Positions 1-39,363 of a DNA stretch of 39,363 bases are shown one piece after another. The position numbers and the translations under genes were made by a program. The notes beneath the pieces are model-generated. The model had not been told where the DNA came from and searched no databases. It saw only the letters and a list, made by a program, of their open reading frames with translations. Every line of letters starts with the position of its first letter. The stretch's first letter is position 1. Origin of the DNA: a virus; the IMG/VR virus record IMGVR_UViG_3300035156_000166, positions 1-39,363 of that record. One strand, given 5' to 3'.

Positions 1-127
1 TGAACCGAGTAGTGGCGGTGTTCTGCGCGACCGGCGCGGTCATGTGGTTGATGCTTGCCGAGGAGAACTCGACCGCTGCCTTGCCGTTCGCCAGGAACGC
101 ACCGGTCGAGCGGTACGTCGGCTGCCG
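1..127. repeat. Left copy of 127-bp terminal direct repeat, identical to 39237-39363 (circular closure, assembler overlap or terminal redundancy)
   Basis: Read directly: the two strings are identical, and an ORF runs in frame across the junction. Offset is 39236. Confidence 0.95.
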
Positions 128-1120
128 CGCCTGCGTCGCTTGAACAGCGTGCGCCGTGCCCACGCTGTCAGTCCACGAGGAGAGCAGACCGCCGTCGGCG
201 GGTGGTGAGGTGATGCCCGACGCCTTCCACCTGCCGCGCAACGTGGGGACAGAGGATATCGGGGACGGAACTGAGCCGGAGCCCGTGCCGACCACCGATA
301 CCGCGCCCGCCCCGGAGCCGCTCTTGTCCGTCGACCCGGAGCCCGATCCGGAGACCGCGACCGTGCCGGTCCCTGAGCCGGTCGGCACCGCGTCGGGCAC
401 GTAGTCGGACACCGTGATCGCGTAGCGGTTCTGAACGTAGCTGTGAAGCTCCGCCCGCTCCGCTGCCGTCGCCGCGTGGTCGACGATCATGAACTCCGCG
501 ACGTCAGCCTGCAGCGGTCTGGTTGCGCCCTTGAGCCCGATCCAGATAGTCCCGTTGCCCGCCGCGCCCGCGTTGCCCGTGGCTACCTGCGTGCCGTTGA
601 CGTAGATCGTCGTGCTCGCACCGTTGGCTACAGCAGTGACCACTACAGGGTTGAGGGTGGCCGTGCCTGCTGCGGACGAGACGTCAGCGGAGCCGCCCCA
701 CACGACCCACCCGGTGCCACGCTGCAACAGCTCCACGCCGCCGTCGACCAGCTCTTGATCGGTGCCGGGAAGCGCGTTCATCTTCAGCACCATGACGTAG
801 GTGAGAGGTTGCGCCTTCGACGCGATGTCTGCCTGCAGCACGTGATTGCTGAAGCGGAGGACGGGTAGCCCATTGATCCCGCTGTTGATGAACGGAGGTC
901 GCTCGGAGGCGGTGACCCTCGTCAGTGGTACGCCGCCCACAAGAGCGGGCCACGGGGGATTGATCCCGTCCGCCCCGCTGATCGAGTCGGCGCGCCAGCG
1001 TTGCGTGAGGCCGGTCACGTACGAAGGGTCTGCCGGTCCCTTGACCTCGAGCAGAACGGCAGAGGCCCCGTCCTCGAGGAGTAGCCTGCTGCCGTCCTCG
1101 AGGAGGAGAGTGTCAGCCAT
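1..1120 (-). CDS. N-terminal 373 codons (ATG at 1120) of a wrap-around ORF that continues 39236->37381: LamG-like x2 / Gly-Ser repeat protein, 991 aa in total (putative fibre or decoration protein)
   Basis: Hand translation of minus strand 1120->1 has no stop (MADTLLLEDGSRLLLEDGASAVLLE...). It is missing from the ORF track because it runs off the window edge. Position 43 equals 39279 and is in frame. The start lies 4 nt after the stop of 1124..1771. A LamG_3-like terminal motif ADVAEFMIVDHAATAAERAEL is followed by ITVSDYV and two GSGxGxVxVxGxGSG units. Confidence 0.8.
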   Translation of the reverse strand, partial: MADTLLLEDGSRLLLEDGASAVLLEVKGPADPSYVTGLTQRWRADSISGADGINPPWPALVGGVPLTRVTASERPPFINSGINGLPVLRFSNHVLQADIASKAQPLTYVMVLKMNALPGTDQELVDGGVELLQRGTGWVVWGGSADVSSAAGTATLNPVVVTAVANGASTTIYVNGTQVATGNAGAAGNGTIWIGLKGATRPLQADVAEFMIVDHAATAAERAELHSYVQNRYAITVSDYVPDAVPTGSGTGTVAVSGSGSGSTDKSGSGAGAVSVVGTGSGSVPSPISSVPTLRGRWKASGITSPPADGGLLSSWTDSVGTAHAVQATQARQPTYRSTGAFLANGKAAVEFSSASINHMTAPVAQNTATTRF

Positions 1121-1123
1121 GAC

Positions 1124-1771
1124 CTATGCCAGGTTGAAGAGCTCAGACTGCACGAGCTGAACCTGCCACGACGACGACGCGCCAGGGTTGACCGAGACCC
1201 CGATGCGGAGGTTCGCCGCGGTGACGTCGAAAGCTGCGCCGACCTGCGTGTTGATGTTGTTCGCGCCCGCGGTCGCGCCGCTTATGAGGCCGGTCGAGGT
1301 CAGCCGGTGCTGTAGGTAGATCACCGCTGCCGGGACCGCGGTCGCGCCGATGGTGCGGAAGTTGAGGTAGATCTCGAAGAAACCCTCGTCGACCACTGCA
1401 GTCTGCGCGCCGAACGAAGCGGTAACCCGCGCGGTGTCGGCAGTGGTGCCCGCGGTGCCGACCCGGATATTGAGCGACGCTGCCGCCACTCCCGCCGCCG
1501 ATTTGGTGACGTTGAACCTGCACCGGTACATAGACCGGACCTGCAACCGTCCCGTGGGGATCAGCACGTCCGAGCCCGTGATGTAGGTCTCAGTCGTGCC
1601 GAGGGTCTGCGCCGCTATCGAGCCGTTGCTCTGCCGACCCCGTTGCTCGAAGTACGCGGTGAGTTGGTTGAGGCTGAAGCGCTCGGTGACCCCGCCCGAA
1701 GCGACCGGCACTAGGTCGGTGTCTGCCGGGGTTCCCCCGTCGGGCAGTGCGCTGATCTTGGTATCGGGCAT
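1124..1771 (-). CDS. Tail-fibre-like structural protein
   Basis: ORF track, 215 aa. The N-terminus TKISALPDGGTPADTDLVPVASGGVTERFSLNQL matches the recurrent phage fibre/spike N-terminal anchor motif as I recall it. It sits among fibre-like genes and is tightly packed. Confidence 0.6.
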   Translation of the reverse strand: MPDTKISALPDGGTPADTDLVPVASGGVTERFSLNQLTAYFEQRGRQSNGSIAAQTLGTTETYITGSDVLIPTGRLQVRSMYRCRFNVTKSAAGVAAASLNIRVGTAGTTADTARVTASFGAQTAVVDEGFFEIYLNFRTIGATAVPAAVIYLQHRLTSTGLISGATAGANNINTQVGAAFDVTAANLRIGVSVNPGASSSWQVQLVQSELFNLA

Positions 1772-1913
1772 CCCGCTCCCTCGAGCTGAGCCTGCAGCTC
1801 AGCTATCGTTTCGTCTCGGTCTTTCAGTCTGCCCTCGAGCGCCCGCACCTTGCCCTCGAGTCGAGCGATGTAGCTGTCAGCTCGAGCGGCAAAGTCGGCG
1901 TACTGCCCGCCGA

Positions 1914-2258
1914 TCAGGTCGCGGCGCTGTTGAGCGCGAGGGAGTTGATGGTGTACTGCCCCGCTGCGTTGCTCGAGGTGTCACCGGTGAGGAGCTGAGA
2001 CCCCCGGTAGACCCCGCCCGTGATCGCCGACCAGTACGTCGCGTAGAGCACGGGCCCGGAGGCTGCGCCGCCCGTGAAAGCCTTGTTCGTGAGCACGATG
2101 TCGCCGTTCGCCGCGGTCGACCACCCTGCAGCGACGCGCGCGTGCGACGTCGCGTTGAGGCCGGTCGATCCGGGGTCGGCTGAGGCGAGGCCCACGTGCG
2201 AGCACGCGGCGGCGATCGCGTTCATGCCGATGTCGAGAGTCGTATCGAGTAGAGGCAT
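1914..2258 (-). CDS. Small fibre-associated protein (hypothetical)
   Basis: ORF track, 114 aa, Gly/Ala/Thr-rich. It resembles small proteins found beside actinophage minor tail or fibre genes. Coding-like GC3. Confidence 0.5.
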   Translation of the reverse strand: MPLLDTTLDIGMNAIAAACSHVGLASADPGSTGLNATSHARVAAGWSTAANGDIVLTNKAFTGGAASGPVLYATYWSAITGGVYRGSQLLTGDTSSNAAGQYTINSLALNSAAT

Positions 2259-2341
2259 GGTCAGCCCTTCGGTTCAGGTGGTGTTCAAAGATGACGATCG
2301 CGGGGCGCGAGTCGTCTAAACGTCTCTGCTCAGACTACCAG

Positions 2342-3373
2342 TCAGCGGTAGCTTCGGATCTTGGCTGTCACCTGATCGGCGTAGGGCTTGCGCCTGAAAT
2401 CGCTGTAGAGCCACCCGAAGCACAGCTCCCCATTGGTGGCGGAGACGCCGCGGTCGCGGAGCTGATAGAGCGTGGCGACGTACGGGTCCGCGCTCATCAC
2501 TGCGCTGATCTGTTGCACGATCGCGTTGCCGACGTCTGCGGGGGAGCCGTAGCCGCTGACCATCGGGAGGCCGAACTCGAGGATCCCGACCGGCTTGCCG
2601 TAGCGGGTCCGGAGTTCGCGCATCCCCTCCGCCATGATCCGCATAGCGGTCGCGTTCTTCTCCGGGTAGGCGTGCACGCACACGACGTCGAGCACGGGGA
2701 GCCCGTCGAAGAACGTCTTCCACCGGGCCACTCTGCCAGCGTCGACGGGGTAGCCGAAGGGCGTCGTGGTGATCTTGGCTGCCTCGAGACCGACCACGCC
2801 GCGGATCACGCCGCGGAGGTGGGTCAGGGAAGCGTTCATCCGGGCGAGGTAGGCCGTGTTGAAGTTGGTCCCGAGCGGGGCATGGTTGCGGTAGTCGCGC
2901 CCGTCGTGCTCGTTGTAGATCTGCCAGAGGTCGACGTGCTGCCCGATGTCCTCAGCGACCGCCCGGACGTATTGCCCGTTCGCCGCGTTGAATTGCGCCT
3001 CAGTCCAGGCGTCGGAGTTGTAGAGCGAGGCCATGACCAGCACGACCCGGATGCCGCTCGCCTTGATCTTCGCGAAGGCTTGCTTGTAGAAGGCCGCGAC
3101 CGCTGCGTTGCGTGTAAACGTGCTGCCGTTCGTCGAGCCGTAGACACCGATCGGGATATCGAAACGTCCCCACGTTGCGCCGGATGCCACGAGCTCAGCG
3201 AGATCCCGGTCGAAGGTCCCCTCGTTGACGAAGATCATCGCACCGAGCGCGCCAGCCGGAGGCGGGGGAGGTGGCGGTGGCGGGGGTGGGGGAGTGGTGA
3301 GCCTGTCGATCTCTGCCTGAAGCGCTGCGATCTTGTCGTCTGCCTGCTGGCCGAAGTCGGCGTAGGTTCCCAT
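2342..3373 (-). CDS. Clan GH-A (GH5-like) glycoside hydrolase with N-terminal coiled coil and poly-Pro linker; putative virion-associated depolymerase
   Basis: 343 aa. Motifs lie in TIM-barrel order: WQIYNEHD (acid/base NE), VCVHAYP (H-x-Y), GILEFGLP (nucleophile E). The N-terminus YADFGQQADDKIAALQAEIDRL is followed by 12 consecutive Pro. Confidence 0.6.
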   Translation of the reverse strand: MGTYADFGQQADDKIAALQAEIDRLTTPPPPPPPPPPPPAGALGAMIFVNEGTFDRDLAELVASGATWGRFDIPIGVYGSTNGSTFTRNAAVAAFYKQAFAKIKASGIRVVLVMASLYNSDAWTEAQFNAANGQYVRAVAEDIGQHVDLWQIYNEHDGRDYRNHAPLGTNFNTAYLARMNASLTHLRGVIRGVVGLEAAKITTTPFGYPVDAGRVARWKTFFDGLPVLDVVCVHAYPEKNATAMRIMAEGMRELRTRYGKPVGILEFGLPMVSGYGSPADVGNAIVQQISAVMSADPYVATLYQLRDRGVSATNGELCFGWLYSDFRRKPYADQVTAKIRSYR

Positions 3374-3940: not shown

Positions 3941-4840
3941 TTACGGGGTGTCGACCACGCCGTCGGTCAGACGGACGTACTGCGTCAGGTCGCGGACGAT
4001 GAACCCGAGCTCGATCTCCGCGCGCACCGCGAACATGTCACGCTGCCAGAGGTTGATCTGAGTCCCGCCGTCGTTGATCGTCGCCTGATCGGAGATCGCC
4101 ACGGAGACGCCTTCCACCGTGCCGACGTACGCACCGGAGAAATCGCCCGCGAAGCCGAGATCGTCGCCGATCGTGGTGCTCTTCTTCATGGCTGCCTTCG
4201 TCTTCGACACCGGAGCGCCGAAGATCGAAGAGGCGAGCGTGCCGTCCGGCTGCTGACCCTGCGTGAAGTACTGCAGGCCCGAGGACGGGTTGACCGCGCC
4301 GAGGAGCGAGGCGTAGAGCGGGTTGCTGACGATCCAGTGCGTCAGGTCGCCGCCAGCCGCCGCGATCGCGGTTGCCACGCTGAGCACCTGCGCCAGGGTC
4401 GGGGTCGTCGCGCCGAACGAGATCTGCGGGACGCCGCCGAGGGTGTCGAAATCCGACCCCGGAACGGCGGTCACGCCGTACACGGTCTCGTCGAAGCGCT
4501 TCGCCAGAGCCGCGGGGAGCCGCTGCACGAGGGCACCGTAGAGGCTGCCGAGGTCGCGCTTGAACTGGTTGGAGAAGGGCACGATCACGGCGATCGTGTA
4601 ACCCTTCATGCTCTTCGAGCCGACCGTGCCGCGGCTGACGGGCTTCTCGTCGGTCTCGTTGACCCACGCGGCCACCGGCTCGCCGGTAATCATCGGGATC
4701 GTGAGACCCGCGCCGGGAAGCGGGAGGGTCTGCGACACCTGCATGATGGTCGACGCCTCGAGGACGTTCGACCAGATCTCACCGGAGATCTGCTTCGGGA
4801 GGGGAACGTTGGTCGTGCCCCTGTTGATATCGACGGGCAT
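3941..4840 (-). CDS. Major capsid protein (HK97-fold type)
   Basis: 299 aa. Sits after portal and scaffold. Sequence character is typical of actinophage HK97-like capsid proteins. Followed by terminator hairpins. Confidence 0.8.
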   Translation of the reverse strand: MPVDINRGTTNVPLPKQISGEIWSNVLEASTIMQVSQTLPLPGAGLTIPMITGEPVAAWVNETDEKPVSRGTVGSKSMKGYTIAVIVPFSNQFKRDLGSLYGALVQRLPAALAKRFDETVYGVTAVPGSDFDTLGGVPQISFGATTPTLAQVLSVATAIAAAGGDLTHWIVSNPLYASLLGAVNPSSGLQYFTQGQQPDGTLASSIFGAPVSKTKAAMKKSTTIGDDLGFAGDFSGAYVGTVEGVSVAISDQATINDGGTQINLWQRDMFAVRAEIELGFIVRDLTQYVRLTDGVVDTP

Positions 4841-27681: not shown

Positions 27682-28226
27682 GTCCGGCCGCCATTCTTGC
27701 CGAGGTAGACGTTATCGGTGGTCAACTCGTGGCCTCTCTTACAGTGAGTCTTCGTGCGTCGGACCGTGGCAGGGTCGACCGGGCCGCGCGCTCGCTGCGC
27801 CGCTGCACGAGCCTGCGCGCATATCTTGCACAGTCGATTCTTGCCGCCTGCCGGAGTTTCGTATGAGTAGGAGTTGCCCTCGTACGGGTGACCCTTCGGG
27901 CAGTGCGTCTTCCGTTGCTGAGCGAGCCTGCCACGGCTGACGGCATCCTGAGAGTTATCCTTCGCGCTGCCGATGAGAAGGTGCACGGGATTGATGCATG
28001 GCGGGTTGTCGCACGTATGCCGGACCTGCTCGCCCGGTAACGGCAGGCGTCCGTTCGCGTCGATCCATGCGAGCACGTGAGCACGCCGGATGAGTTTGCC
28101 GAACCTGCGCGCGTAGCAGATTCCATAGCCTTTAGCATCGGTCGCGCCGCCCCACTCGATACACTCCATGCCTTCGAGTTTATCATGATTACTTAATTCC
28201 GACCTGATAGAACTCGAAGCTGACAT
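27642..28226 (-). CDS. HNH homing-type endonuclease with two C-terminal zinc ribbons (start may be ATG 28169)
   Basis: HTCDNPPCINPVHLLIGSAKDN. Repeated THCxxGH...CKxC. AT-richer 5' end. Confidence 0.8.
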   Translation of the reverse strand: MSASSSIRSELSNHDKLEGMECIEWGGATDAKGYGICYARRFGKLIRRAHVLAWIDANGRLPLPGEQVRHTCDNPPCINPVHLLIGSAKDNSQDAVSRGRLAQQRKTHCPKGHPYEGNSYSYETPAGGKNRLCKICAQARAAAQRARGPVDPATVRRTKTHCKRGHELTTDNVYLGKNGGRTCKTCALERGRKS

Positions 28227-30033
28227 CGTAGACCGGTGTCGGCAGGGGACGGGGAGCGCACTTCAGGTTGCGGATCACAACCGGGATCGTCGCATCGGAG
28301 AGCGTCAGCCAACACTGCTGACCGGGCTTGGCCCGGATCGCCAGGATCGCCGCCTGCTGCTGCTGCGCGGTAGTGGCTAACCCGATGGGTGCCGTCGCCT
28401 GCAGCGTGCCCTGCACAGTGCCCTCGAGCCCGCGGAGCGAATGCGTGACGACGGTCGACTCCGAGGAGTTGAGAGCGGTCAGCACCTCAGAGTCTTCGCC
28501 GTAGATCCAGTCCCTCGTCTCGCGCCCGAAGAGCACCACCTCATTCTGCCGGAGGTAGTCGCTGAGCCATATCCCCTGAGACCGGACCGTGACCGTCCCG
28601 GTCGAGTTGCCCGAGCTCGCCTTACCGTTCACCACCGCGAGCACCTGGTAGGTCAGGCTGTTGCCCGGAGGCGCGGAGCGGTCGACGTAGGAGAACTGCG
28701 TGCCGCTGCCGACGTCCCCCGGCAGGATCCCCGAGACGATCACGACGTTATTGCGCATGATCGAGAAGGAGTCGGGGAACGTCGCCCGCGACCACGCGAG
28801 CGTCACCTGAGGCCGTGGGTCACCCGGTGTCAGTACGAGGTTCGTGGTCGGCGTCGTGAGGTTGGAGAGGACGAAGGAGAAATCCCTCGAGGCATCGGAC
28901 CACGCCGGATCGTTCGGGATCGTCTCGCGGTTCTTGCTGTCCCAGACGATCACGCGCACGTTGTAGATCGTCCCCGCCGCGGACGGCAGAGCTGCAGCGG
29001 GCAGGGTGAGCGACGTCGCGGTGCCGGTGACCTTGCCGGATGACCAGATGATCGCGCCGGTCACCGGGTCGGAAATGTTGACCTGATACGCCTTCTGCGT
29101 CTCGCCGGTGAAGCTCCAGACGATCGGCGGGGTCTGCTCGTTGACGAAGTTGTTCGGCGCGACTCCGGGGCTCGTGATCGCTACGGTCCCCTTGATATCG
29201 CGTGTAAACGACTCAGCTTGTGACCACGCCGAAACGAGACCGTTCGTGTCGGTGCACCGCATCCGCCACCACCGCGTCTCGCCGTCGGCGAGCCCGACAA
29301 AGGTCCCCTGCGTCGAGAGGTCGAGCTCCGGAGCCGAAGCGGTAACCGCGCCGGAGTCCCACGCCGGAGACGTCCAGAGGTTTGAGGAGTTCGTCTGCAC
29401 CTGCACCGCGGCCAGAGCGTTATCGTTCCCGACGTCGGTGTAGGTCGCCGCGACTGTAGGTGCCGCCAGGCTGACCACACGCCCGCCTCCGGGACGAAGA
29501 GCGGTCGGGGCTGACGGGGGTACGGACCATGCCAGCTCGAGCCTAGGACGGAGCGTAGGGTCCGTGGCAGTGGAGTCGTAGAACCATAGGAGCGGGTTGA
29601 AGTTGCCGGTGAGCTGCCAGCCGTACCAGACGTCCCCGTTCGCCACGCTCTGAACTTGGCTCGTGACGTCGACCAGCCACTCCGCGCCCTGCGCGATCGG
29701 CCCGGTCCGGCTGACCGTCTTCGCCGCGTCCGGGTAGAGCGTGGTCGGGCGCGTGTTCCACGTGACCTTGCTCGAGGACATCGCCTGCGCGAGCCGCTTC
29801 AGGGAGAGCGTCATCGTGCCCGCCTGCGCCGACGTCCGGCTGTAGAGGTAGAGCTTCGCGGAGCTGACCACGGCTCCCTTCGGGATCGCGGAGAGGCCGA
29901 AGTAGAGCAAGCCCCACGCATCACCCGCGCCCCCGGTCCGGACGCCGAACTGCGTCAGGTACTCGAAGTTCTTCGAGGGATCGGCGAGCGAGACCGTAGT
30001 CGCGAGCGCGGTGCGTAGCGTGGTGGCTGCCAT
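28189..30033 (-). CDS. Minor tail protein: N-terminal carbohydrate-binding-like (DNRLRE-like) domain, FN3-like repeats, distal-tail-like C-terminus
   Basis: 614 aa, immediately after the tape measure. Contains LLYFGLSAIPKGAVVSSAKLYLY...KVTWNTRP. Confidence 0.6.
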   Translation of the reverse strand: MAATTLRTALATTVSLADPSKNFEYLTQFGVRTGGAGDAWGLLYFGLSAIPKGAVVSSAKLYLYSRTSAQAGTMTLSLKRLAQAMSSSKVTWNTRPTTLYPDAAKTVSRTGPIAQGAEWLVDVTSQVQSVANGDVWYGWQLTGNFNPLLWFYDSTATDPTLRPRLELAWSVPPSAPTALRPGGGRVVSLAAPTVAATYTDVGNDNALAAVQVQTNSSNLWTSPAWDSGAVTASAPELDLSTQGTFVGLADGETRWWRMRCTDTNGLVSAWSQAESFTRDIKGTVAITSPGVAPNNFVNEQTPPIVWSFTGETQKAYQVNISDPVTGAIIWSSGKVTGTATSLTLPAAALPSAAGTIYNVRVIVWDSKNRETIPNDPAWSDASRDFSFVLSNLTTPTTNLVLTPGDPRPQVTLAWSRATFPDSFSIMRNNVVIVSGILPGDVGSGTQFSYVDRSAPPGNSLTYQVLAVVNGKASSGNSTGTVTVRSQGIWLSDYLRQNEVVLFGRETRDWIYGEDSEVLTALNSSESTVVTHSLRGLEGTVQGTLQATAPIGLATTAQQQQAAILAIRAKPGQQCWLTLSDATIPVVIRNLKCAPRPLPTPVYDVSFEFYQVGIK

Positions 30034-36291: not shown

Positions 36292-36633
36292 TTAGCTGCC
36301 TCTCGAGGTGTTTAAACCTGCCTTAGTGCTGCCCAGCATACCGGCCACGCCGGGGGAGGTGACGGACCAGACAACTTCGTAGCGGTCGCCGGTCACCTCG
36401 TCGACCACGCGGTCGAGGTGGTTGAGGTCGCACGGGTCGGCGAGGAGAGTAAACGTCACGCTCTCGACGCTGCCTGACGGCCCACCCTCACCGCCCGTCG
36501 TGGTGTCGATCACTGCCCGGACGCCGGTCTCTACGGTCTCGAAATCGGCAAGCTCGTCGTAGTCTTCGGGGTCGATGTTCGACCGGTCCGCTGCCCGCTC
36601 GATCTTGATCGTGGTCGTGCTGATCGGGATCAT
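36292..36633 (-). CDS. Head closure / stopper-like protein
   Basis: ATGA overlap start at 36633. Assigned by position after the adaptor. Confidence 0.5.
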   Translation of the reverse strand: MIPISTTTIKIERAADRSNIDPEDYDELADFETVETGVRAVIDTTTGGEGGPSGSVESVTFTLLADPCDLNHLDRVVDEVTGDRYEVVWSVTSPGVAGMLGSTKAGLNTSRGS

Positions 36634-37070
36634 ACGATCGGGATCCACGGGTCAGGCTGCCGACGGTAGCGGGGCCGGACGGACGGCATGACGCTCTGGA
36701 TCTTCACGGTCGAGCTCGAGACCCACGAGAGCCGACGGAGAGCTGCGCGCGCGAGCGGGGAGAGGAAGCGGTCTTCGGTCTCCGTGCCGCCGAAGTAGGA
36801 GATCGAAGCCCCGTTCGCCGACACCGACGAGACGCCGGAGATCCTCTTCAGCGCCTCCGGATTCTCGTCCAGGTAGGCCACCTGCCAGATGATCGCCGAC
36901 CGGAGCACGGCGAGGTCCGCTTCGCTGTACGTCGCTTCAGCTAGCGCAGAGTCCCCGAGGTGCGTGCCGGTCTCAGTCTCAATGATGAATTGAGACTTCG
37001 CGATCGCCACGGAGTCGACGGAGAGCCCGAGCTTGTCGGCGACCTCTTGAGCGGTGACGAGGTTCGTCAT
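36630..37070 (-). CDS. Head-to-tail adaptor
   Basis: Track ORF trimmed to ATG 37070 (ATGA overlap). MTNLVTAQEVADKLGLSVDS... is typical of connector N-termini. Confidence 0.6.
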   Translation of the reverse strand: MTNLVTAQEVADKLGLSVDSVAIAKSQFIIETETGTHLGDSALAEATYSEADLAVLRSAIIWQVAYLDENPEALKRISGVSSVSANGASISYFGGTETEDRFLSPLARAALRRLSWVSSSTVKIQSVMPSVRPRYRRQPDPWIPIV

Positions 37071-37384
37071 AGTGCGACTCCCAACGGATAGACTTCGATG
37101 ATCTCGGTCGTCGTCCAGTCGAGCACGGTCGACCCGGACACCCTGACGCGGAGCTTGTAGTCCCCCGCGGTCGGGAAGAGCGTCGTGGGTGGCCACGCGA
37201 AGAGCGCCTTGCCGTCCTCACGCACGGAGAGGGTGCCGCCCGACGTCGAGACTGCCTGACCCTCCGGACTGACCAGCTCGAGAACGAGCTGCCCTTCATG
37301 CGGGGTGAGGTCGATCTGATCCCTGCCGTCGGTCACGGTGATGAGAAGAGCCTGCAGCGGGACAGATCCCACGGTGAGCTTCAC
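37067..37384 (-). CDS. Small beta-sandwich (Ig-like?) protein
   Basis: 105 aa, with an alternating beta-strand pattern. GTGA overlap with the giant ORF. Confidence 0.45.
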   Translation of the reverse strand: MKLTVGSVPLQALLITVTDGRDQIDLTPHEGQLVLELVSPEGQAVSTSGGTLSVREDGKALFAWPPTTLFPTAGDYKLRVRVSGSTVLDWTTTEIIEVYPLGVAL

Positions 37385-39363
37385 GATCGCCTCCTCCGGA
37401 AGTTAACGGCAGGCCGGTCGAGCTGCAACGTTATCTCGATCGTACCGCGTCTGCGGAAGATCACGGCGGGACGCTCGAGCGTGAGCGTGACGTCGATCGT
37501 GCCGCGAACGTCGCCCAGACCGACGCCCACGACGGACCAGAGACCGAGGCCGGAGCCGCTCGAGACCCTCGAGCCTTCGCCGGATCCGGTCAAGAGGATG
37601 ATCCCGGAGCCGTCGCCCTGCGGGATGGTGAGCACCGGAGCGGAGCCCGAGCCGGTGCTGGTGATGCTGACCACGGCGGAGCCCGAGCCGACGGAGCTCC
37701 GCGAGCCAAAGCCCGTGCCCGTGTAGCTGACCGTCCCGGTCGCCACGCCGAGCGGGACCTTGCTGCCGCTGCCCGTTCCCGAGACTGCCACGGTGCCCGA
37801 GCCGGAGCCCTGCCCGCCTGTCAGCGTCGGCGCGGTGCCGGACCCGCTGCCTTCTACCTGCAGGGTCGCGATCCCTGTCCCCTGAGCAAGCCTCGAGCCC
37901 GACCCGGCGCTCGAGAACTGTATCGCACCCGCCCCGTCGCCGCTCTTGAGGGTCGACCCTGCGCCAACTCCGGAGACCGCGACCGTGCCGCTGCCGCTGC
38001 CGGACCTCGAGGTGGTGCCAGTGCCGGAGCCGGAGACCGAGACCGTGCCCGTGCCGGAGCCGGAGCTGACGCCGACCGTCGGCGCGAAGCCGACGCCGGA
38101 GCCGGAGACCGCGACCGTGCCGACACCTGAGCCGGACTTGTCCGTGATGCCGTTGCCGGAGCCGACCACGGGCACAGAGCCCGTCCCTGAGCCCGCGGGC
38201 TGCTGAGATCCAGCACCCGAGCCGGAGACCGCTACAGCGCCCGCTCCCGCCCCGCTGCGCGCCGTTGTGCCGTCGCCGCTACCTGAGACCGCCCAGACGC
38301 CCGCGCCTGCGCCCTGAGCGATCCTCGCGCCGCTGCCGCTGCCTACGACAGAGACCGTGCCGGAGCCGTCGCCGTTCGGGACGCCGAGCACGGGTGCCGT
38401 GCCGGATCCAGCGCCGGTGACCGCGACCGTGCCCGCCCCGTCGCCTGTCGGTGCCTTGCTGCCGATGCCCGACCCGATGACCGCGACCGTGCCCGTGCCG
38501 GAGCCGGACCTCGAGGTGGTGCCAGCTCCCGATCCGGTGACGTCGACCGAGCCCGCGCCCTGCCCGCTCTTGACCGTCGACCCTGCGCCAGCTCCCGAGA
38601 CTGCCACGGTGCCCGTGCCGGAGCCCGTGTAAACGGTGCTGCCCGAACCTGAGCCGGAGACTGCGACCGTGCCGGTGCCCGACCCTGCCGGAGTGCGCGT
38701 GCCCGATCCGTCGCCAGAGATCGCTACGGTGCCGACGGCGGAGCCGCCAGCTACCCGCGTGCCCGACCCTGAGCCGGAGACCGCGACCGTGCCGGTGCCC
38801 GAGCCGGACTTGTCCGGAGTGCCGGAGAGGTAGTCAGCAACCGTGATGCCGTACTCATCGGAGAGGGCACTGTGAACAATGGCCCGGTCCCCAGCCGAGA
38901 GGACCGAGGAAAAGTCGACCACATCGCTGAGGTAGATGTTCGCGGGCTCGCCGCCGTCGGTCTTCGCGCCGAGGGTGAGCGAGGTCCCGGTCAGCGTGTG
39001 AGCCGTCGAGCTCGAGGCGTCGAGCGCTCCGTTGACGTAGATCGTGTTCGAGTTGGTCCCGTTGTCCGCGATGGTCAGGACGTACCACGTGTTGATCTGC
39101 GGGGTGAAGACACCGTTCGTCAGGAAGGTAACGTTCTGGACACCGGTACGGAAGCGCGGCGTGGCGTCGACGAGAGCCTGCAACAGCGAGGAAGTGACGT
39201 TCTGCGTCGCGCCCAGAGTCTTGAACCGCACCACCATGAACCGAGTAGTGGCGGTGTTCTGCGCGACCGGCGCGGTCATGTGGTTGATGCTTGCCGAGGA
39301 GAACTCGACCGCTGCCTTGCCGTTCGCCAGGAACGCACCGGTCGAGCGGTACGTCGGCTGCCG
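37381..39363 (-). CDS. C-terminal part of the wrap-around 991-aa ORF: second LamG-like domain plus 21 Gly/Ser-rich 20-aa units
   Basis: The track lists 37381..39279, but the frame stays open upstream to the window end and joins 1120->1. Confidence 0.8.
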   Translation of the reverse strand, partial: RQPTYRSTGAFLANGKAAVEFSSASINHMTAPVAQNTATTRFMVVRFKTLGATQNVTSSLLQALVDATPRFRTGVQNVTFLTNGVFTPQINTWYVLTIADNGTNSNTIYVNGALDASSSTAHTLTGTSLTLGAKTDGGEPANIYLSDVVDFSSVLSAGDRAIVHSALSDEYGITVADYLSGTPDKSGSGTGTVAVSGSGSGTRVAGGSAVGTVAISGDGSGTRTPAGSGTGTVAVSGSGSGSTVYTGSGTGTVAVSGAGAGSTVKSGQGAGSVDVTGSGAGTTSRSGSGTGTVAVIGSGIGSKAPTGDGAGTVAVTGAGSGTAPVLGVPNGDGSGTVSVVGSGSGARIAQGAGAGVWAVSGSGDGTTARSGAGAGAVAVSGSGAGSQQPAGSGTGSVPVVGSGNGITDKSGSGVGTVAVSGSGVGFAPTVGVSSGSGTGTVSVSGSGTGTTSRSGSGSGTVAVSGVGAGSTLKSGDGAGAIQFSSAGSGSRLAQGTGIATLQVEGSGSGTAPTLTGGQGSGSGTVAVSGTGSGSKVPLGVATGTVSYTGTGFGSRSSVGSGSAVVSITSTGSGSAPVLTIPQGDGSGIILLTGSGEGSRVSSGSGLGLWSVVGVGLGDVRGTIDVTLTLERPAVIFRRRGTIEITLQLDRPAVNFRRRRS
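37510..38800 (-). repeat. In-frame coding tandem repeat array (about 60-nt units) encoding GSGxGxVxVxGxGxG plus a 5-aa linker
   Basis: I counted 21 units in the protein. Every fourth or fifth linker is 9 aa (TAPVLGVPN, FAPTVGVSS, TAPTLTGGQ, SAPVLTIPQ). Confidence 0.8.
39237..39363. repeat. Right copy of the 127-bp terminal direct repeat
   Basis: Identical to 1-127. Confidence 0.95.

What the first reader, a model, noticed from the sequence alone, without database searches (positions are those of the whole stretch)
37381..39363. 991-aa protein with two LamG-like domains and 23 copies of a 20-aa Gly/Ser unit with a higher-order period
The joined ORF has four parts:
- an LLLEDG N-terminus;
- LamG-like domain 1 followed by 2 repeat units (encoded at about 250-340);
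- LamG-like domain 2 followed by 21 repeat units;
- a duplicated basic tail, GTIDVTLTLERPAVIFRRR / GTIEITLQLDRPAVNFRRRRS.

The repeat unit is GSGxGTVAVSGSGSG plus a 5-aa linker. Roughly every fourth or fifth linker is a 9-aa xAPxL type, which suggests a super-repeat. The strict alternation of Gly and small residues with V-x-V is consistent with a beta-solenoid or fibre. I do not recognise this repeat as a described family.
Basis: partly seen in the sequence, partly recalled or inferred. Interest (0 to 1): 0.65.

Follow-up and report, generated by a model that had tools for sequence, protein, structure and literature searches.

The report
Phage lectin fibre on glycine-rich stalk
This is a real 991-residue gene of an uncultured actinobacterial-type tailed phage, most likely a sugar-binding surface fibre whose two lectin-like domains sit on a stalk made of a widespread 20-residue glycine/serine repeat that none of the family libraries searched (Pfam, NCBIfam, PHROGs) covers.

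Summary
The gene is on the minus strand. The window ends share an exact 127-bp overlap that must be removed to read the ORF: ATG at 1120, running through 1 (=39237) to the stop at 37381. The same 2976-nt CDS lies uninterrupted on two independent linear contigs.

Both LamG-like domains pass Pfam's PF13385 cut-off. There are 23 units of 20 aa (2 + 21). Four carry 9-aa xAPxL linkers, giving blocks of 7, 5, 4, 3 and 2 units, so there is no regular super-period.

The repeat matches nothing in Pfam, NCBIfam or PHROGs, and has no credible match in the PDB. It is nevertheless common: 1904 representative proteins match the full-length query, and many of the best 150 match its repeat region. In these it is nearly always C-terminal, has the same 20/24-aa spacing, ends in a short tail, and sits behind exchangeable N-terminal domains (LamG, GDSL esterase, GDPD).

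AlphaFold2 with an alignment gives an all-beta meander. pLDDT reaches 80-89 in the first block, and confidence dips at the long linkers. No fold match was significant in the PDB.

Best reading: a virion accessory adhesin fibre. The head/neck versus tail location is unresolved. I rate it a new variant of a known kind, of moderate interest.

The parts
1..1120 (-). 5' part of the CDS (aa 1-373 and the first base of codon 374). ATG at 1118-1120. Bases 1-127 duplicate 39237-39363.
37381..39363 (-). 3' part of the CDS. The unique part is 37381-39236; 39237-39363 repeats window 1-127. Stop codon at 37381-37383, overlapping the GTG start of the next gene by 4 nt.
1043..1111 (-). N-terminal triple octapeptide motif: TLLLEDGS, RLLLEDGA, SAVLLEVK (aa 4-26).
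401..1033 (-). LamG-like domain 1 (aa about 30-240). PF13385 Laminin_G_3, E 1.3e-7, 32.3 bits against a cut-off of 27.6.
260..379 (-). Repeat units 1-2 (aa 248-287).
1..256 (-). LamG-like domain 2, first part (aa 289-373). It starts with a Pro/Ser linker and the motif PTLRGRWKASGI, which matches the N-termini of stand-alone LamG proteins.
38809..39236 (-). LamG-like domain 2, second part (aa 374-516). For the whole domain: PF13385 E 6.5e-7, 30.1 bits against a cut-off of 27.6.
37513..38805 (-). Repeat units 3-23 (aa 518-948), in five blocks of 7, 5, 4, 3 and 2 units.
38374..38400 (-). Long linker 1, TAPVLGVPN (aa 653-661). AlphaFold2 confidence dips here.
38062..38088 (-). Long linker 2, FAPTVGVSS (aa 757-765). 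AlphaFold2 confidence dips here.
37810..37836 (-). Long linker 3, TAPTLTGGQ (aa 841-849). AlphaFold2 confidence dips here.
37618..37644 (-). Long linker 4, SAPVLTIPQ (aa 905-913). AlphaFold2 confidence dips here.
37384..37512 (-). C-terminal tail (aa 949-991): two copies of a 19-aa amphipathic, basic unit, GTIDVTLTLERPAVIFRRR and GTIEITLQLDRPAVNFRRRRS.
1124..3373 (-). Three genes between the major capsid gene and the target: 343 aa (coiled coil, poly-Pro, clan GH-A-like barrel), 114 aa and 215 aa.
3941..4840 (-). Major capsid protein gene (context).
36630..37384 (-). Downstream genes: a 105-aa gene whose start overlaps the target's stop, and a head-tail adaptor gene (context).

Best explanation
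The gene encodes an accessory surface fibre (adhesin) of a siphovirus with an actinophage-like genome.

Shown:
- Two ConA-like/LamG lectin-fold domains.
- A 21-unit Gly/Ser-rich array predicted to be all-beta.
- A short duplicated basic tail.
- Membership of a large family in which the C-terminal repeat plus tail is the constant part and the N-terminal domain is exchangeable.

Inferred mechanism:
- The conserved C-terminal repeat and tail act as scaffold and probable attachment end.
- The N-terminal LamG domains are displayed distally. They bind host cell-envelope polysaccharide reversibly and multivalently, which raises adsorption.
- The Gly face / Ser-Thr face alternation, with a V-x-V core, lets successive 20-aa units stack as an antiparallel beta-meander.
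- The 9-aa xAPxL linkers separate the sheet blocks.

Location: the gene slot, directly upstream of the head-tail adaptor genes, favours attachment at the head or neck over the tail tip, but only weakly.
For: Genome context:
- The genome has standard siphovirus order: terminase, portal, scaffold, major capsid protein, [343, 114, 215, 991 aa], 105 aa, adaptor, Neck1, tail terminator, major tail protein, tape measure, distal tail genes, endolysin.
- The gene abuts its neighbours: a 3-nt gap upstream and a 4-nt overlap downstream.

Domains and fold:
- PF13385 passes its cut-off for both domains, and for 20 of 21 relatives in alignment A2.
- AlphaFold2 with a 31-sequence alignment gives an all-beta model. 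pLDDT is 80-89 over block 1 and 70-78 over block 2, with dips at the four long linkers.
- 48% of identical residues between units use different codons, so the repeat is old and kept at protein level.

Family features:
- 1904 representative proteins match the full-length query.
- 57 of the 152 homologues in hand match the repeat region, which in most of them ends within about 45 residues of the C-terminus.
- In 61 proteins with at least 8 units, spacings are 20 aa (483 times) and 24 aa (63 times), followed by a tail that is usually about 25-90 aa.

Exchangeable N-terminal partners point at cell-envelope glycans:
- LamG.
- GDSL esterase (P0098).
- GDPD (P0163).
- Gly_rich_2 (P0168).

Same slot, between the capsid gene and the adaptor or head-completion genes, in two unrelated phages:
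- L022.
- L051.
Against: - No direct evidence of virion incorporation.
- Other family members lie in or after the tail module (L023, L024, L050, L048) or just upstream of the terminase gene (L047). Gene position is therefore a weak guide to location.
- The tail module here has no obvious long fibre, which leaves room for this protein to be the tail fibre.
- The AlphaFold2 model is a monomer of only moderate confidence (mean pLDDT 62.5; the last blocks and the tail are below 50).
- Oligomeric state is unknown.
- Sugar binding by these LamG domains is inferred from the superfamily only.
- The N-terminal LLLEDG motif could be the anchor instead of the C-terminal tail.
Confidence: 0.55

Rival explanations
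1. It is the phage's tail fibre or receptor-binding protein, encoded away from the tail module and attached at the tail tip or baseplate.
For: - Several family members are encoded in or next to tail modules. L024 lies after a gpJ-like Phage-tail_3 gene. L050 lies among tail genes and also carries the Gly_rich_2 domain. L023 is at the end of a tail module.
- The target's own tail module (614-aa CBM96+Ig protein, 194, 399 and 326 aa) has no long fibre.
- The LLLEDG motif also occurs inside gpJ-like tip proteins.
Against: - The gene sits between the capsid gene and the head-tail adaptor genes, as in L022 and L051.
- The polarity is the reverse of typical tail fibres: the variable domain is N-terminal and the conserved part C-terminal.
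- The LLLEDG motif is also found on neck proteins of the gpFII and Hc type.
Confidence: 0.3
2. It is not a virion component. It is a soluble or released cell-wall-binding protein made late in infection, for example one that aids lysis, blocks superinfection or binds debris.
For: No virion data exist. LamG and enzyme domains can act in solution. One homologue (L049) lies in a region that does not look like a phage.
Against: - It lies inside the structural gene block, abutting its neighbours (3-nt gap upstream, 4-nt overlap downstream).
- It has no signal peptide or membrane segment.
- Most family contexts examined are phage structural modules.
Confidence: 0.08
3. The Gly/Ser array is a flexible, disordered spacer rather than a folded beta structure.
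For: - Composition is 29% Gly and 19% Ser.
- Single-sequence AlphaFold2 gave pLDDT 38.
- The last blocks have low confidence even with an alignment.
Against: - Positions are strictly conserved: Gly at 1, 3, 5, 11, 13, 15 and hydrophobic residues at 7 and 9 (V here, often W/F/Y in relatives), held across hundreds of proteins at fixed 20/24 spacing.
- pLDDT is 80-89 for block 1 with the alignment.
- The two-residue periodicity fits beta strands.
Confidence: 0.1
4. The repeat region is a WD40-like beta-propeller.
For: phmmer against PDB sequences hits the designed propeller Ika8 (E 2e-6) and the PkwA WD40 domain (E 0.05).
Against: - The alignment rests on the shared V-S-G-x-x-D-G-T-like motif and the 20/40-residue periodicity, at low identity.
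- There is no Pfam WD40 hit, even at E up to 1.
- AlphaFold2 does not build a propeller, and Foldseek finds no propeller.
Confidence: 0.01
5. The 991-aa ORF is an assembly artefact created by joining the two contig ends.
For: The ORF exists only after the contig is circularised, and the two LamG domains are paralogous.
Against: The identical CDS is uninterrupted on two independent linear contigs from other samples, and a third contig carries its first 490 codons. LamG1 and LamG2 are only 28% identical, too far apart to cause a mis-join.
Confidence: 0.01

Closest known systems
Pfam PF13385 Laminin_G_3 (ConA-like lectin/glucanase) domains on phage proteins, e.g. Rhodococcus phage REQ2 gp13, annotated 'virion structural protein'
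   Same: Both N-terminal domains pass the PF13385 cut-off. They carry the GDIAE...Y...LS...R...HSY.QD.YGITVSDY C-terminal signature shared with many 230-255-aa stand-alone proteins. REQ2 gp13 matches a relative at 28% identity and lies in a structural module.
   Different: No GenBank phage matches the target itself. The tandem LamG arrangement fused to a 21-unit stalk was not seen in any other protein retrieved.
Head decoration fibres with adhesin domains: T4 Hoc, T5 pb10 (from established knowledge, not tested here)
   Same: A dispensable-type accessory protein displaying binding domains away from the particle. The gene is next to the capsid genes. Hoc is likewise anchored by its C-terminal end.
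   Different: Those use Ig-like domains, not LamG. They have no Gly/Ser 20-aa repeat and no sequence or profile similarity. Capsid binding of the target is untested.
Carbohydrate-binding modules on siphophage virions: evolved Dit, neck passage structure / collar-whisker proteins of lactococcal phages (review PMC7291167 was listed by the paper search; I did not open it)
   Same: Lectin-type modules added to structural proteins for binding saccharide receptors on Gram-positive hosts. The window's own 614-aa distal tail protein carries CBM96.
   Different: The carrier proteins and folds differ, and none has this repeat.
Glycine-rich minor tail proteins of actinobacteriophages (Pfam PF21722 Gly_rich_2)
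   Same: Gly-rich actinophage fibre-type proteins. One family member (P0168) carries both PF21722 and the 20-aa repeat.
   Different: The target has no PF21722 hit. Its repeat is a strict Gly-X alternation with a 20-aa period, which no Pfam model covers.
Silk-fibroin-type (Gly-Ala/Ser)n antiparallel beta sheets (analogy from established knowledge)
   Same: Glycine alternates with small residues, so one strand face is Gly and the other Ser/Thr/Ala. Long antiparallel strands are predicted.
   Different: There is no homology. Here the units are discrete 20-aa units with a V-x-V core, defined turns and Pro-containing block linkers. The packing is unknown.

Membership tests
Laminin_G_3 / ConA-like lectin superfamily (PF13385) | Profile match at or above Pfam's gathering score | tested here: met
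   LamG1 32.3 bits and LamG2 30.1 bits against a cut-off of 27.6. The full-length scan missed both.
Laminin_G_3 / ConA-like lectin superfamily (PF13385) | Beta-sandwich jelly-roll fold | tested here: inconclusive
   Only a single-sequence AlphaFold2 model covers these domains, at pLDDT about 30-45. A profile search of PDB sequences gave only weak hits to LamG/pentraxin-like chains, E 0.02-0.2.
Laminin_G_3 / ConA-like lectin superfamily (PF13385) | Carbohydrate binding | not testable with these tools
   Needs glycan arrays or cell-binding assays.
Unnamed 20-aa Gly/Ser(Thr/Ala) repeat family (a few NCBI/UniRef members are called 'beta strand repeat-containing protein') | 20-aa unit with Gly at core positions 1, 5, 11 and 15 and hydrophobic residues at 7 and 9; occasional 24-aa unit with an xAPxVG-type linker | tested here: met
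   (483 spacings of 20 aa and 63 of 24 aa in 61 proteins)
Unnamed 20-aa Gly/Ser(Thr/Ala) repeat family (a few NCBI/UniRef members are called 'beta strand repeat-containing protein') | Array at the C-terminal end, followed by a short tail of repeated beta-strand-like or basic motifs, behind a variable N-terminal domain | tested here: met
WD40 beta-propeller | Pfam WD40 profile match and a propeller fold of about 40-aa blades | tested here: not met
   No Pfam hit at E up to 1. AlphaFold2 and Foldseek show no propeller. Only a weak periodic PDB sequence hit.
Collagen-like or polyglycine-II helix bundles (as in some phage fibres) | Gly at every third residue | tested here: not met
   Gly falls at every second residue; lag-2 and lag-10/20 periodicities dominate.
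Parallel beta-solenoid / beta-helix fibre | Successive repeats stack as parallel coils; structural similarity to known beta-helices | tested here: inconclusive
   The monomer model shows antiparallel hairpins. Foldseek hits to beta-helix proteins all have E above 0.3 and TM at or below 0.24. A trimeric fold could not be modelled.
Phage tail fibre (generic) | Encoded in the tail module downstream of the tape measure, Dit and Tal genes | tested here: not met
   The gene lies between the capsid and head-tail adaptor genes. Some relatives do lie in tail modules.
Head decoration / head fibre protein (Hoc-like) | Binds the capsid lattice; present on purified heads | not testable with these tools
   Only gene position supports it. 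No Ig-like or known decoration-family hit.

The most novel reading that the evidence does not exclude
The 20-aa Gly-X alternating repeat is an undescribed, silk-like beta-meander fibre fold. Together with its short C-terminal tail it would serve phages of several lineages (actinophage-like contigs and a GTA-like siphophage contig) as a C-terminally anchored display scaffold for exchangeable glycan-binding or glycan-degrading heads. The LLLEDG octapeptide triple, shared with gpFII/Hc-type neck proteins and gpJ-like tip proteins, would be an unrecognised trimerisation or docking motif.
Probability: 0.25. Interest if true: 0.7.

Novelty: new variant of a known kind. Interest (0 to 1): 0.5.

Why it matters
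Accessory fibres carrying lectin or enzyme domains affect how fast, and to which hosts, phages adsorb. That matters for host-range prediction and for engineering actinophages.

This protein is a handle on a large family that is absent from Pfam, NCBIfam and PHROGs. In the homologue searches its members came almost entirely from metagenomes.

The family's stalk repeat has no significant structural match in the PDB. Its architecture, with a variable N-terminal head and a constant C-terminal stalk plus tail, is the reverse of classical tail fibres.

Defining the fold and the attachment site would:
- add a module to the phage fibre repertoire;
- allow annotation of hundreds of currently 'hypothetical' proteins.

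It does not point to a new kind of biological system.

Tried and rejected
- Naive end-to-end join of the window: it breaks the frame, and was fixed by removing the 127-bp overlap.
- Full-length Pfam and PHROGs scans: no usable hit; the LamG matches appear only when the domains are scanned alone.
- tblastn of the target and of the repeat homologue P0074 against GenBank phages: no match. BLAST's low-complexity filter may hide the repeats, so absence from cultured phages is not proven.
- Word-indexed homologue searches with the full protein and with aa 1-516: 1 and 2 hits only. The exhaustive phmmer scan and a profile of alignment A1 worked.
- Single-sequence AlphaFold2: unusable, pLDDT 38.
- Genome-contig scan with P0008: only distant LamG relatives in MAGs of diverse phyla, so no host assignment.
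- The PDB hit to the designed WD40 propeller Ika8: rejected as a periodicity and low-complexity match.
- Literature searches for LLLEDG, for glycine-rich actinophage tail proteins and for LamG on siphophages: nothing describing this repeat or motif.
- Sorting C-terminal tail types by gene slot (head versus tail): no pattern.
Full report

Yes, with corrections.

- The ORF lies on the minus strand.
- The first 127 bases of the window are identical to the last 127. This is the usual signature of a circular or permuted assembly.
- Joining the ends directly breaks the frame. Removing one copy gives a unique sequence of 39,236 bp and an ORF of 991 codons.
- The ATG is at window 1120. The ORF runs down through position 1 (=39237) and continues from 39236 to the stop at 37381-37383.

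The join is not an artefact. The identical 2976-nt CDS lies uninterrupted on two linear contigs from other samples, L008:9439-12414 and L011:1793-4768. A third contig holds its first 490 codons.

**2. Anatomy**

| Part | Residues |
|---|---|
| Three octapeptides: TLLLEDGS, RLLLEDGA, SAVLLEVK | 4-26 |
| LamG-like domain 1 | about 30-240 |
| Two repeat units | 248-287 |
| Pro/Ser linker, then LamG-like domain 2 | 289-516 |
| Twenty-one repeat units | 518-948 |
| Two copies of a 19-aa amphipathic, basic tail | 949-991 |

- Each unit is a 15-aa core plus a 5-aa linker.
- In the core, Gly is invariant or nearly so at positions 1, 3, 5, 11, 13 and 15. V/I occupies positions 7 and 9, and Ser/Thr/Ala fill the even positions. 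One face of an extended strand would therefore be Gly-Gly-Gly-Val-Val-Gly-Gly-Gly, and the other hydroxyl-rich.
- Lag-20 self-identity is 0.425 against 0.162 for shuffles, z = 15.
- Units average 62% nucleotide identity. Also, 48% of identical residues between units use different codons. The array is old and maintained at protein level, not a recent DNA expansion or an assembly collapse.
- Four linkers are 9 aa long: TAPVLGVPN, FAPTVGVSS, TAPTLTGGQ and SAPVLTIPQ. They follow units 9, 14, 18 and 21 and give blocks of 7, 5, 4, 3 and 2 units. That is not a regular super-repeat.
- The tail duplication also shows at DNA level (57-nt period).
- LamG1 and LamG2 are paralogous: 28% identity, E 3e-11.

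**3. Known families**

- The full-length Pfam and PHROGs scans returned nothing useful.
- Scanned alone, both LamG-like domains pass the PF13385 Laminin_G_3 gathering score of 27.6 bits: 32.3 and 30.1 bits. Twenty of 21 members of an alignment of close relatives also match.
- The repeat region, the tail and the N-terminal motif have no Pfam hit even at E up to 1.
- The target and several repeat-bearing homologues have no NCBIfam match to the repeat.
- PDB sequence searches gave only a periodic, low-identity hit to the designed WD40 propeller Ika8. I reject it because there is no WD40 profile hit and the model shows no propeller.
- GenBank phages hold no detectable homologue of the target. BLAST's low-complexity filter weakens that negative for the repeats.

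**4. The repeat is a large family absent from the libraries searched**

- An exhaustive phmmer scan of 1.84 billion representative proteins found 1904 hits at E up to 1e-3, and 281 at E up to 1e-10.
- Some hits match the LamG module. Many of these are stand-alone proteins of 230-255 aa that begin MADPT..GL..RWRADSI and end ..HSYVQDRYGITVSDY.
- Others match the repeat module. Its consensus is G[ST]A[ST]G.[WVI].[FWV].G[ST]A[ST]G plus five residues.
- The repeat region nearly always reaches the C-terminus.
- In 61 proteins with at least 8 units, spacings are 20 aa (483 times) and 24 aa (63 times). The 24-aa units carry the same xAPxVGxxxG-type linker. Block sizes range irregularly from 1 to 12, usually with the longest block first. 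A tail, usually of about 25-90 aa, follows.
- The tails often hold repeated motifs such as SRTLTATG or RATLSIG.
- N-terminal partners vary. They include LamG, a GDSL esterase with a hydrolase-like region (P0098), GDPD (P0163), Gly_rich_2 (P0168) and a recurrent unknown domain.
- The only names that sources give are 'hypothetical protein' and 'beta strand repeat-containing protein', the latter for a few alphaproteobacterial entries.
- The closest LamG relatives are stand-alone proteins: 54% identity for LamG2 and 50% for LamG1. The target therefore looks like a fusion of two such modules onto one stalk.

**5. Fold**

- Single-sequence AlphaFold2 failed (pLDDT 38).
- With a 31-sequence alignment of aa 497-991, the model has mean pLDDT 62.5 and pTM 0.54, and is entirely beta.
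- pLDDT is 80-89 across the first seven units and 70-78 across the next five. It is lower afterwards, and below 50 for the tail.
- In block 1 the strands are about 17 residues long with three-residue turns every 20 residues. In block 2 they are about 8 residues long every 10 residues. Both describe an antiparallel meander rather than parallel solenoid coils.
- Segments with pLDDT below 50 fall on all four 9-aa linkers, which supports reading the linkers as block boundaries. A few further dips lie within the last blocks.
- Foldseek found no significant PDB match (best E 0.38, TM 0.16). In the viral predicted-structure library it found one match, to an uncharacterised protein, at E 5e-4.
- Gly at every second residue fits beta strands. 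It does not fit collagen or polyglycine-II bundles, which need Gly at every third residue.
- A homotrimeric fibre fold could not be tested.

**6. Genomic context**

- The window is a siphovirus genome of about 65% G+C, distantly related to Streptomyces, Mycobacterium and Microbacterium phages.
- Gene order on the minus strand is: large terminase, portal, scaffold, major capsid protein, then 343 aa, 114 aa, 215 aa and the target. These are followed by a 105-aa gene, head-tail adaptor, Neck1, tail terminator, major tail protein, tape measure (1249 aa), a 614-aa CBM96+Ig protein, further tail proteins and a GH25 endolysin.
- The target starts 3 nt after the upstream stop, and its own stop overlaps the next start by 4 nt.

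Nine contexts of repeat-bearing proteins were examined:

| Position of the gene | Loci |
|---|---|
| Between the capsid gene and the adaptor or head-completion genes | target; L022 (different capsid family); L051 |
| In or after the tail module | L023, L024, L050, L048 |
| Just upstream of the terminase gene | L047 |
| Unclear | L049 |

Gene position therefore favours a head or neck location for this protein only weakly.

**7. Most likely mechanism**

- Shown: lectin-fold domains, a predicted beta stalk, a conserved C-terminal scaffold with exchangeable N-terminal heads that are glycan-binding or glycan-degrading, and location inside the structural gene block.
- Inferred: an accessory virion fibre. 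The repeat plus tail would form the scaffold and probable attachment end. The LamG domains would bind host envelope polysaccharide reversibly and so aid adsorption.
- The polarity, with the conserved part at the C-terminus, resembles T4 Hoc rather than classical tail fibres. That comparison rests on established knowledge and was not tested here.
- The main rival is a tail fibre encoded outside the tail module (confidence 0.3).
- Minor rivals are a non-virion protein and a disordered spacer.

**8. The N-terminal motif**

- A DNA pattern for LLLEDGxxLLLEDG found 22 viral contigs.
- There the triple octapeptide lies mostly at the extreme C-terminus of small proteins. Three of the five families tested match neck-protein models. 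One is PF05354 Phage_attach (gpFII-like), another is phrog_82 (head closure Hc1), and the third gives weak Phage_HCP and Phage_attach hits.
- It also lies near the C-terminus of gpJ-like tip proteins.
- In this window only the target carries the motif.
- No Pfam model covers it and no paper found mentions it in phages.
- It may be a small oligomerisation or docking element. The analogy to octapeptide triple beta-helices is a lead only.

**9. Verdict**

- The feature is real and correctly described in outline.
- The LamG assignment and the 'undescribed repeat' claim hold. The 'super-repeat' and 'solenoid' claims do not, or are unproven.
- I rate it a new variant of a known kind, a phage accessory adhesin fibre.
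- The stalk repeat is widespread, missing from Pfam, NCBIfam and PHROGs, and without a significant structural match in the PDB. I score interest at 0.5.

Noticed in passing
window 1-127 and 39237-39363: Exact 127-bp terminal direct repeat. This is the circular-assembly overlap; the unique genome length is 39,236 bp. Any feature that crosses the window ends must be read after removing one copy.
   Followed up: yes
window 1043-1111 (-); loci L025-L046: The triple octapeptide motif LLLEDGxx recurs in 22 IMG/VR contigs. It sits mostly at the C-terminus of small proteins, some matching neck-protein models (gpFII-like PF05354, head closure Hc1), and inside gpJ-like tip proteins. No Pfam model or paper covers it. 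It may be a docking or trimerisation element.
   Followed up: partly
window 2342-3373 (-): The 343-aa gene just after the capsid gene encodes an N-terminal coiled-coil-like segment, a run of 12 prolines and a TIM-barrel-like region with an IYNEHDG motif. It has a weak Glyco_hydro_cc hit (E 0.0035) and weak GH1 hits in the PDB. It may be a virion-associated glycosidase.
   Followed up: partly
window 1124-1771 (-): The 215-aa gene directly upstream of the target starts MPDTKISALPDGGTPADTDLVPV. From memory, this N-terminus resembles those of some phage fibre or spike proteins. It has no Pfam, PHROGs or PDB hit.
   Followed up: partly
window 28189-30033 (-): The 614-aa protein after the tape measure gene carries CBM96 and a Rha78A-like Ig domain. 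That is a second sugar-binding module on this phage, probably an 'evolved' distal tail protein.
   Followed up: partly
alignment A2; proteins P0004, P0008, P0029, P0044: Many stand-alone LamG proteins of this subfamily end in short basic tails (e.g. PPRRRISVAVSRAANF, RGRPQLYVPRRRAANW) that recall the target's RPAVIFRRR tail. This hints that the tail is a common attachment element.
   Followed up: no
L018/L019; L047: In other phage contigs, LamG proteins of this family (with or without repeats) lie immediately upstream of what look, from size and order only, like the terminase and portal genes. The cassette seems to move between positions in the late gene block.
   Followed up: partly
L022:6510-7403: In the unrelated phage contig L022, a gene matching a 'major tail protein' PHROG lies directly after the major capsid gene and upstream of the adaptor genes. 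This is an atypical gene order.
   Followed up: no
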